A stretch of DNA of 64,000 nucleotides, from positions 28,520,001 to 28,584,000 of the forward strand of contig NC_043003.1 in NCBI RefSeq assembly GCF_006345805.1, in the 5' to 3' direction. Positions 17,833 through 19,200 of the stretch are shown in pieces. Positions within the stretch are counted from its first letter, which is position 1. Every line of letters begins with the position of its first letter. This stretch comes from Octopus sinensis (lineage: Eukaryota). A program made the position numbers.

Positions 17833-19200
17833 TGGAGAGGGGGTGTTGAGAAAAGGAGACAGATAAAATTATATATTCAAAGTTATTTTCTAACATGTCT
17901 TAAAATCTGTAAGGTCGTTGTTTCGACTCCTAGACTTTGTTTTTAATAAAAAACATTTAATTTGACTTCGTTCTTGTCCCCTCAGCTAAAAATGATAACA
18001 GGCAGCAATTAGGATTATCCTGTGAAGGACTAGCCACCATTTTGAAAAAGTAATTTTTTAGATAATTAATTAGCCGAACGTAGTTTCTTTTTACAGATAT
18101 CTGAATTAGGAACCTTACTACTCTTCCACTATTCCAAACTGAATTTTAAGAAACTTATGCCATCCATATAATATTCCGTTAATTATTATTACTTATAATT
18201 ACTTATAACAGTAAGCTCGTATCGTTTGTGGCAAATCATTCAGTGGCGTATTGCATTTTTGATCGCTTACATGTCATAAAGACTGCGTTGTAACACGATC
18301 TTATGTGCCTGTAGACTACCCAGCTGGCGGTGCACTGTGTTCATTTCACGTTGTCCCAATCCACTCTGAGTAACCACGTAAAGGAATAGCCTTCCGATTA
18401 GCGGGGATGTTGACCTGTTCGCCTAGCGGGGTGGTATCATTCGAAAGCTAAAACAATGCGAAGCGCATTGTGACAAGCGTATAGCAACAACCGATAGTCT
18501 GGTCGATTCCATGAAATATATATATATATAGCAATAATAAATCTCTAAACGAGATATAAACAGTAACTGCTCTATAACATAAGGGGTATCAGCCATCTGA
18601 ATGTGGCTAGGGACAGGGCAGGGCGGTGGGGGTGTTACTGATGCATTTAGCCCCAGGCGATCATCAACGTCACCAGGAGGGCTGACACCATCTCGGTGTC
18701 CTCTAGCCTGCAAAGGGAGATCATTCCCCGAAGACGCGGATGCTACATACGGACCAGGTTTCAAGGTAGGCAAATACCTTGAAACCTGGTCCGTATGTAG
18801 CACCCGCGTCTTCGGGGAATGATCTCCCTTTGCAGGCTAGAGGACACCGAGATGGTGTCAGCCCTCCTGGTGACGTTGATGATCGCCTGGGGCTAAATGC
18901 ATCAGTAACACCCCCACCGCCCTGCCCTGTCCCTAACCACATTCAGATGGCTGATGCCCCTTATGTTATATATATATATATATATATGAATAAAAAATGG
19001 AGTTAACGCAGGTGTAATCAAATATTTTTACTTTCGACACATGTTTCGAAAATTCCACTGATACTATTCAAATGAATAAATGGTATAAACAATGCAATCT
19101 TCTCCTCAGTTACAACACCTTTACTTGTGAGATTTTTGCTGCCCTGGTAACTATTTATTTATTTTTCCGTGTTAATTGTGAACAAGGTAAAAATACTCTC

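What the first reader, a model, noticed from the sequence alone, without database searches (positions are those of the whole stretch)
18531..18970. Fold-back family that produces its own long hairpin at each insertion (second copy at 47437-47708)
Seen: two clearly diverged family members, yet each is internally almost perfectly palindromic (196-bp arms with 3 mismatches; 110-bp arms with none). Both have the same unpaired leader of about 42-44 bp on one side only, both start the palindrome at the same TAAYATAAGGG point, and both sit in (TA)n. Only the turn-around point differs. Inference: arm identity within but not between copies implies the inversion is generated (or homogenised) per insertion, for example by fold-back or template-switch cDNA synthesis primed at TA repeats. 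If transcribed, these are ready-made dsRNA substrates for ADAR or Dicer.
Basis: partly seen in the sequence, partly recalled or inferred. Interest (0 to 1): 0.72.

Follow-up and report, generated by a model that had tools for sequence, protein, structure and literature searches.

The report
Penelope-type hairpin retroelement insertions in TA repeats
Two near-perfect DNA hairpins sitting in TA repeats are real and look like the known insertion scar of Penelope-like retroelements in what is probably an octopus-like genome, so they are interesting but ordinary.

Summary
Copy 1 has a 42-nt one-sided leader (18531-18572), 196-nt arms with 3 mismatches and a 6-nt loop. Copy 2 has 110-nt arms with 0 mismatches, an 8-nt loop and a 44-nt leader (47665-47708). 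The two copies are only about 88% alike. Both are bracketed by (TA)n runs, which cover 2.07% of the window.

Copy 2's loop is colinear with copy 1's leader-side arm. So the leader-side arm is the original and the far arm is its copy. The outer ends are fixed and the centre varies.

This is the published insertion signature of Penelope-like elements (PLEs):
- strong 5' truncation;
- an adjacent inverted 5'-truncated copy, head-to-head;
- a 30-40 bp "tail" at one end only;
- an AT-rich or (TA)n target.

PLE protein cleaves and extends both target strands and starts reverse transcription at two adjacent sites, which define the tail. Every cephalopod PLE family whose insertion-preference column I could read prefers (TA)n. 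The window's own 5'-truncated RT/GIY-YIG element (24285-25970) also lies between TA runs.

No sequence link from the hairpin family to a PLE gene was found, and no eukaryotic genome collection was available. The phenomenon is known, so this is a new member of a known kind.

The parts
18516..18530 (.). (TA)n run abutting the leader (tail) end of copy 1; inferred target microsatellite
18531..18572 (-). Copy 1 one-sided leader of 42 nt, read as the PLE-type 'tail' (3'-terminal extension present on one arm only). It holds a small conserved stem-loop.
18573..18768 (-). Copy 1 leader-side (near) arm: the 5'-truncated copy in the inferred sense orientation (3' end towards 18531). It carries the state shared with copy 2 at 2 of 2 testable arm mismatches.
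18769..18774 (.). Copy 1 loop, 6 nt (turn-around point)
18775..18970 (+). Copy 1 far arm: inverted 5'-truncated copy lacking the tail. Its outer end merges with the TA run.
18967..18987 (.). (TA)n run abutting the far arm of copy 1
47384..47438 (.). (TA)n run abutting the far arm of copy 2
47437..47546 (-). Copy 2 far arm: inverted 5'-truncated copy lacking the tail
47547..47554 (.). Copy 2 loop, 8 nt. It is colinear (7 of 8 nt) with the continuation of copy 1's near arm.
47555..47664 (+). Copy 2 leader-side (near) arm, inferred sense orientation
47665..47708 (+). Copy 2 one-sided leader (tail), 44 nt
47709..47753 (.). (TA)n run abutting the tail of copy 2
24285..25970 (+). Comparator, not the same family: a 5'-truncated Penelope-like element (C-terminal GIY-YIG ORF fragment 24285-25037). 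Both its ends abut TA-type repeats (24177-24284 and 25971-26016).

Best explanation
Each locus is one heavily 5'-truncated insertion of a Penelope-like retroelement, or of a short non-autonomous rider on its machinery, into a (TA)n microsatellite.

Inferred course, following the published PLE model:
1. The GIY-YIG nuclease cuts the AT-rich target on both strands.
2. Both 3'-OH ends are extended by reverse transcription of the element's RNA.
3. One cDNA starts at the outer start site and so carries the 42-44 nt tail.
4. The other starts at the inner start site, the TAAYATAAGGG point, and so lacks it.
5. Synthesis stops at a variable point, 110 or 196 nt in.
6. The two cDNAs are joined head-to-head by a template jump or by self-priming. 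This leaves a 6-8 nt loop that belongs to the tail-bearing copy.

Both arms therefore come from one template in one event. They start identical, however far the source lineages have diverged.

Shown: the anatomy, the colinear loop, the TA target, and a true PLE in TA runs in the same window. Inferred: the RNA intermediate, the enzyme, the sense orientation (fixed ends taken as 3' ends), and the order of steps.
For: **Anatomy.**
- The outer ends are fixed in 2 of 2 copies.
- The centre varies: 110 versus 196 nt.
- The tail sits on one arm only: 42 and 44 nt.
- Arms are 98.5% and 100% alike; copies are 87.7% alike.
- Copy 2's loop matches copy 1's near arm at 7 of 8 nt.

**Target.** All 4 ends abut (TA)>=6 runs, which cover 2.07% of the window.

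**Published PLE hallmarks** (passages read):
- Craig et al. [quoted passage not shown]
- Arkhipova et al. 2013, PMC3846280: a 31-bp tail on one of the inverted pLTRs; an inverted pLTR 37 bp shorter; head-to-head is the most frequent arrangement; palindromes at the junction are read as self-priming.
- Frangieh et al. 2024, PMC11167929: the purified PLE protein cleaves and extends both strands, prefers AT-rich DNA, and initiates at two adjacent internal sites. The interval between them is the tail.

**Cephalopod PLE families.** In the supplement table of Craig et al., all 5 rows whose insertion-preference column I could see read '(TA)n': Naiad_Obim, Naiad_Ovul, Naiad_Omin, Naiad_Esco and Hydra-1_Obim.

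**Same window.** Element 24285-25970 matches a 766-aa protein at E = 2.2e-34. That protein carries RVT_1 and GIY-YIG. The element lies between TA-type repeats.

**Recent activity is plausible.** 31 PLE families are recently active in O. vulgaris.
Against: - **No sequence link to any PLE.** blastn and Smith-Waterman against the in-window PLE are negative (score 11 versus shuffle mean 10.3, maximum 14).
- **No protein match.** The only frame open throughout (81 codons in copy 1) has no Pfam match. It has no longer homologue (0 of 85 candidates). An exhaustive search gave only 2 weak hits to repeat-built proteins.
- **No hammerhead ribozyme**. Naiad PLEs lack one too, but Craig et al. call cephalopod Naiads long inactive. 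That fits poorly with arms that are 98.5-100% alike.
- **Tail length.** It is 42-44 nt, slightly above the quoted 30-40 bp.
- **No pLTR or tandem partner is seen.**
- **Only two copies.** An alternative exists for the two 'start sites': both lie where the template would carry UA repeats (an internal TATA, and the flanking TA run of a read-through transcript). Microhomology priming by any reverse transcriptase could give the same ends.
Confidence: 0.62

Rival explanations
1. The same cDNA snap-back origin, but made by another reverse transcriptase. This could be a microsatellite-targeting LINE such as the Dong/R4 type, or its SINE-like rider. A (TA)n target end would prime on UA repeats in the template, the cDNA would fold back on itself at its 5'-truncation point, and the returning strand would rejoin the target at the internal TATA by microhomology.
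For: - Both fixed ends lie at TA-like template sequence.
- The loop is colinear with the near arm.
- Dong-R4 LINEs are the most numerous recently active LINEs listed for O. vulgaris: 1129 insertions.
- That Dong-type elements target microsatellites is recalled, not from a call.
Against: - The PLE literature states that the tail and the inverted arrangement are not seen in non-LTR TPRT.
- In copy 2 the arm holds two other ATAT words that the returning strand passed. Microhomology alone therefore does not fix the end.
- No LINE homology was found.
Confidence: 0.15
2. A DNA-level fold-back element or long-TIR MITE that inserts at TA. Its arms would be kept alike by intrastrand gene conversion, and its centre would be shortened by hairpin-tip deletions.
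For: - TA runs in this window also hold a true MITE (26017-26147, about 35-bp TIRs).
- Long palindromes are known to lose their centres (general knowledge, recalled).
Against: - The termini are not inverted copies of each other. The 42-44 nt leader is part of the element in both copies (88% alike) and has no partner at the other end.
- The shorter copy would need an almost exactly symmetric deletion that left a perfect 110-nt stem.
- The arms hold no tandem subrepeats (one search lists none in either locus).
Confidence: 0.1
3. An assembly or sequencing artefact (fold-back chimeric reads).
For: PLE inverted structures are known to trouble assemblies. No reads were available to me.
Against: - There are two separate loci.
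- Each lies inside unique flanks.
- They share the same leader, the same palindrome start and 12% mutual divergence.
- Copy 1 carries 3 arm mismatches.
Confidence: 0.03

Closest known systems
Penelope-like element insertions with an inverted 5'-truncated copy and a one-sided tail (Penelope/Poseidon, Neptune, Naiad, Hydra clades)
   Same: - Variable 5' truncation.
- A head-to-head inverted partner.
- A short extension on one end only.
- An AT-rich or (TA)n target.
- TSD hidden in the microsatellite.

Sources.
   Different: - Only the last 110-240 nt are present.
- No ORF, pLTR or hammerhead is seen.
- The tail is 42-44 nt rather than 30-40.
- No sequence homology to a PLE was shown.
Octopus and other cephalopod PLE families listed by Craig et al. 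2021 (Naiad_Obim, Naiad_Ovul, Naiad_Omin, Naiad_Esco, Hydra-1_Obim)
   Same: They have a cephalopod host (the window is probably from one) and a stated insertion preference of (TA)n.
   Different: - Their DNA consensus sequences are not in the supplement text I could search. One 19-nt word from the arms was absent.
- Hydra-1_Obim has a hammerhead about 100 nt from its end; this family has none.
- Cephalopod Naiads are described as old remnants.
L1 twin priming and snap-back cDNA (recalled, not from a call)
   Same: Both target strands, or the cDNA itself, prime reverse transcription, and this gives inverted segments in one insertion.
   Different: Twin priming inverts the 5' part relative to the 3' part without duplicating it, and it ends in poly(A). 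Here the same segment is present twice and the ends lie in (TA)n.
MITEs and fold-back DNA transposons, for example the in-window MITE at 26017-26147
   Same: Hairpin-forming, short, non-coding, and sitting in TA runs.
   Different: MITEs have symmetric termini and a fixed internal part. This family is asymmetric (a one-sided tail) and its centre varies.
Micron, a (TA)n-targeting element of rice (recalled, not from a call)
   Same: Flanked by (TA)n on both sides, with no clear TSD.
   Different: As I recall it, Micron has subterminal inverted repeats of fixed structure, not a near-complete palindrome with a variable centre.

Membership tests
Penelope-like elements (PLE) | Autonomous copies encode a PLE-type reverse transcriptase and a GIY-YIG endonuclease | not testable with these tools
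   The window holds only 110-240 nt of the family and no longer copy. No eukaryotic genome collection was open. Translation searches were negative or insignificant.
Penelope-like elements (PLE) | Fixed 3' end with variable 5' truncation | tested here: met
   The outer ends are the same in 2 of 2 copies. The centres lie at 110 and 196 nt.
Penelope-like elements (PLE) | An inverted 5'-truncated copy directly adjacent, head-to-head | tested here: met
   The head-to-head reading rests on taking the fixed ends as 3' ends.
Penelope-like elements (PLE) | A 30-40 bp tail present at one end only | tested here: met
   42 and 44 nt on one arm only. This is slightly longer than quoted, and the boundary is uncertain by 4-6 nt because of the TA run.
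Penelope-like elements (PLE) | AT-rich or microsatellite target; (TA)n in cephalopod families | tested here: met
   All 4 ends lie in (TA)>=6 runs. For the literature.
Penelope-like elements (PLE) | Hammerhead ribozyme in the pLTR (canonical clades only; absent in Naiad and Chlamys) | tested here: not met
   Rfam found none at the gathering threshold over the whole window, nor at E<=10 over 18400-19100. The feature does not define all PLE clades.
Penelope-like elements (PLE) | Partial tandem (pLTR) arrangement | tested here: not met
   No direct repeat of the arms was found. This is expected to be absent in strongly truncated copies, and several cephalopod families are listed as 'no pLTR'.
Penelope-like elements (PLE) | Target-site duplication of variable length | tested here: inconclusive
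   Short direct words lie outside the TA runs: 5 nt at copy 1 and 11 nt at copy 2. They are of the microsatellite's own type, and Craig et al. report the same difficulty.
TIR DNA transposon / MITE (Tc1-mariner type, TA target) | The two termini are inverted copies of each other, with a constant internal part | tested here: not met
   The leader has no partner at the other end. The internal extent differs between the copies.
Fold-back (FB-type) elements | Long inverted arms built of tandem subrepeats (definition recalled) | tested here: not met
   Tandem Repeats Finder lists no array inside 18531-18970 or 47439-47708 apart from the flanking TA runs.
Helitron | 5' TC and 3' CTRR ends, a short 3' subterminal hairpin, insertion between A and T (definition recalled) | tested here: not met
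   The ends read fit neither orientation. The hairpin spans nearly the whole element.

The most novel reading that the evidence does not exclude
These hairpins may be more than occasional by-products. PLE-type self-inverting insertions into (TA)n, from this family and others like it, could be a major, continually renewed source of the long near-perfect dsRNA that makes octopus the strongest hyper-editing genome surveyed. Porath et al. 2017 left octopus out of the analyses that relied on UCSC repeat and coding annotation. A bolder variant is that the family is a dedicated non-autonomous 'hairpin retroposon' whose minimal copies are selected or tolerated as hairpin-RNA loci.
Probability: 0.15. 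Interest if true: 0.6.

Novelty: new member of a known kind. Interest (0 to 1): 0.3.

Why it matters
Minimal hairpin-only copies are clean natural records of how Penelope-like elements finish integration, a step the literature still calls unresolved.

Here they show three things:
- a tail on one arm;
- an inner start point conserved between diverged copies;
- a short loop that belongs to the tail-bearing arm.

This fits the two start sites and both-strand priming seen in vitro for a lizard element, now in what is probably a cephalopod genome.

Such insertions are also ready-made dsRNA if transcribed. That matters in cephalopods, where A-to-I editing and dsRNA load are exceptional. For annotation, these loci should be labelled as PLE-type insertions, not as MITEs or microRNA hairpins. 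Rfam gave only sub-threshold miRNA-like hits.

Tried and rejected
- **Third copy or parent element in the window.** None was found by blastn.
- **Homology to the in-window PLE.** None.
- **Coding test.**
  - One frame on the inferred sense strand is open throughout: 81 codons in copy 1 and 54 in copy 2. The other five frames hold stops.
  - From my own comparison of those translations, amino-acid identity between copies (37 of 48) is below nucleotide identity, so there is no sign of selection.
  - There is no Pfam match and no longer homologue.
  - Two weak hits are built of repeats or Ig domains. By my own rough estimate, the best single stretch (31 bits) is not significant for a library of that size.
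  - An ATG 22 codons before the element's end in copy 1 recalls the ORF start inside PLE pLTRs. It is TTG in copy 2, so it stays a lead only.
- **Hammerhead ribozyme.**
  - None in the hairpins.
  - None in the in-window PLE's 3' region, although by eye I saw a degenerate CUG..GA/GAAAC-like word near 25841-25870.
- **The nearby SINE hairpin (19930-20346) as a second example of the same process.**
  - Rejected.
  - It is tail-to-tail with arms 94% alike.
  - It is explained by two nested insertions with their own direct repeats.
- **Candidate TSDs.** They are ambiguous.
- **Transition/transversion or A-to-G bias as an editing footprint.** There are too few differences to say anything.
- **Collections not used.**
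  - I did not scan genome contigs, because it holds only bacteria and archaea.
  - The genome-wide copy census therefore stayed unchecked.
- **Supplement of Craig et al.** It holds protein sequences and hammerhead tables but, in the text I could search, no DNA consensus. Long cells were cut. I could not tell whether this family is already catalogued there or in Repbase/Dfam.

Full report
**What is there**

The two loci are exactly as described.
- Copy 1 has a 42-nt leader (18531-18572), arms 18573-18768 and 18775-18970 (196 nt), and a 6-nt loop.
- A base-by-base check gives 3 mismatched pairs of 196, all transitions.
- Copy 2 lies in the opposite orientation. Its arms are 47437-47546 and 47555-47664 (110 nt, no mismatch), the loop is 8 nt, and the leader is 47665-47708 (44 nt).
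- As RNA the two fold at -437 and -242 kcal/mol. None of 100 and none of 200 dinucleotide shuffles came near.
- Leader plus arm of the two copies align at 87.7% over 162 nt.
- blastn finds no third copy in the 64 kb.
- All four outer ends abut pure (TA)>=6 runs, which make up 2.07% of the window (44 runs, 1324 nt).

**Anatomy that bears on origin**

- The alignment shows that copy 2's 8-nt loop continues the sequence of copy 1's leader-side arm at 7 of 8 positions. The leader-side arm plus loop is therefore the original sequence, and the far arm is its reverse-complement copy.
- Both outer ends are conserved between the two diverged copies: the start of the leader, and the TAAYATAAGGG start of the far arm. 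Only the centre differs.
- In retroelements the fixed end is the 3' end and the variable end is the 5' end. I therefore read each locus as two 5'-truncated copies joined head-to-head, one carrying 42-44 extra nt at its 3' end. This orientation is an inference.
- At the 2 arm mismatches of copy 1 that can be polarised against copy 2, the leader-side arm has the shared state both times. That is too few to weigh.

**The surroundings**

- The window is probably from a cephalopod. It is dense in TA and TG microsatellites and tRNA-derived SINEs. One protein hit carries the name Octopus bimaculoides.
- At 24285-25970 lies a 5'-truncated element. Its ORF fragment matches a 766-aa protein at E = 2.2e-34, and that protein has RVT_1 and GIY-YIG domains. 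This is the Penelope-like architecture.
- On its own the fragment scores GIY-YIG only below Pfam's cut-off.
- Both ends of this element abut TA-type repeats: 24177-24284 and 25971-26016. So at least one real PLE in this stretch sits inside a TA run.
- It shares no sequence with the hairpin family. The Smith-Waterman score is 11, against a shuffle mean of 10.3 and a maximum of 14.

**What is known**

Passages read in four papers describe this very anatomy as the hallmark of Penelope-like elements.
- Craig et al. 2021 (PMC8557442):
  - Insertions are strongly 5'-truncated.
[quoted passage not shown] - (TA)n is the preferred Naiad target, and TSDs are often hidden in the microsatellite.
- Arkhipova et al. 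2013 (PMC3846280):
  - A 31-bp tail sits on one of two inverted pLTRs, and the inverted partner is 37 bp shorter.
  - Head-to-head is the most frequent arrangement.
  - Palindromes at the junction are read as self-priming.
- Frangieh et al. 2024 (PMC11167929; abstract and passages):
  - The purified protein cleaves and extends both target strands and prefers AT-rich DNA.
  - It starts reverse transcription at two adjacent internal sites. The interval between them 'clearly corresponds' to the tail.
- The supplement table of Craig et al. lists '(TA)n' as insertion preference for all 5 cephalopod families whose row I could see in full: Naiad_Obim, Naiad_Ovul, Naiad_Omin, Naiad_Esco and Hydra-1_Obim.
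- A 2026 repeat annotation of O. vulgaris counts 31 PLE families with recently active insertions (PMC13282606, section read).

**Most likely mechanism**

One insertion event in a TA run produces both arms, as follows.
- The nuclease opens both strands and both 3' ends prime cDNA on the element's RNA.
- One cDNA begins at the outer start site and carries the tail. The other begins at the inner site and lacks it.
- Synthesis ends early, and the two are joined by a template jump or by fold-back.
- This leaves a 6-8 nt remnant of the longer cDNA as the loop.

The model explains identical arms in diverged copies, the one-sided leader, the shared palindrome start, the variable centre and the TA flanks.

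The enzyme, the RNA intermediate and the order of steps are inferred. With two copies I cannot separate two-cDNA joining from a single cDNA snapping back. Both ends also coincide with TA-like template sequence, so microhomology priming is an alternative for the 'start sites'.

**What speaks against, and rivals**

- I could not tie the family to a PLE gene.
  - The one frame open throughout has no Pfam match and no longer homologue.
  - The exhaustive search gave two weak, repeat-driven hits that I discount.
- No hammerhead was found.
- The tail is a little long.
- Cephalopod Naiads are said to be old remnants, so if this is a PLE it is probably another clade or a non-autonomous rider.
- Rivals:
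  - the same snap-back chemistry by a microsatellite-targeting LINE (0.15);
  - a DNA fold-back element with gene conversion and central deletions (0.10), which the asymmetric ends argue against;
  - an assembly artefact (0.03), which two diverged loci with unique flanks argue against.

It has precedent.
- siRNAs map to the inverted regions of rearranged Penelope copies in transformed flies (PMC3681739, passages).
- Penelope is the one massively edited LINE in lizard besides CR1.
- Octopus has the highest hyper-editing and an exceptional fraction of loci able to form long near-perfect dsRNA.
- Octopus was left out of that study's analyses that relied on UCSC repeat and coding annotation (PMC5625713, passages).
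- Whether these two loci are transcribed is unknown.

**Verdict**

I file it as a probable new member of a known kind: a PLE-type truncated, self-inverted insertion in (TA)n. My confidence is about 0.6. The limit is the lack of a genome-wide census and of a sequence link to an RT/GIY-YIG parent.

Noticed in passing
window 19930-20346: A second long hairpin (arms 20001-20161 and 20173-20333, 94% alike, 11-nt spacer). It is made of a full tRNA-derived SINE and an inverted SINE lacking its first 70 nt or so, joined tail-to-tail. Direct repeats suggest two nested insertions: about 12 nt around the whole unit, and about 26 nt (22 of 26 matching) around the inverted copy. It is not the process seen in the finding.
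   Followed up: partly
window 18039-18245 and 19856-20485: Inverted repeat arms of about 200 nt (93% over the 139 nt reported) bracket copy 1. The right arm is interrupted by the SINE pair. Copy 1 may therefore lie inside an older element with long inverted ends.
   Followed up: partly
window 24285-25970: A 5'-truncated Penelope-like element (GIY-YIG ORF fragment 24285-25037) lies between TA-type repeats. Downstream of the ORF are a CT-rich low-complexity stretch and a 122-nt tandem repeat (25344-25601). Rfam finds no hammerhead.
   Followed up: yes
window 26017-26147: A small symmetric MITE with inverted ends of about 35 nt, inserted in the middle of a long (TA)n run. This shows that TA runs here collect several kinds of element.
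   Followed up: no
window 10616-10904 and 11886-12190: A local rearrangement next to a reverse-transcriptase fragment (RVT_1, 10250-10630 minus strand). 10749-10904 recurs directly at 12035-12190 (100%), and 10616-10749 recurs inverted at 11886-12019 (97.8%).
   Followed up: partly
window 5512-44379: Eight tRNA-Met(CAT) genes lie at 5512, 5933, 9132, 15279, 16926, 17207, 38396 and 44308, and one tRNA-Ile(AAT) at 33940. Some form inverted pairs. This is a tRNA gene cluster or a dispersed tRNA family.
   Followed up: partly
window 32028-32493 and 35411-35876: The longest inverted repeat in the window (466 nt, 96%, 2917 nt apart). No RT-like translation was evident by eye among the listed ORFs between the arms. 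Its nature was not determined.
   Followed up: partly
protein P0007: A 730-aa database 'protein' built of tandem units of about 79 aa. Each unit aligns weakly (25-28%) with the open frame of the hairpin arm. It is probably a translated tandem DNA repeat, and the match is not significant for a single unit.
   Followed up: partly
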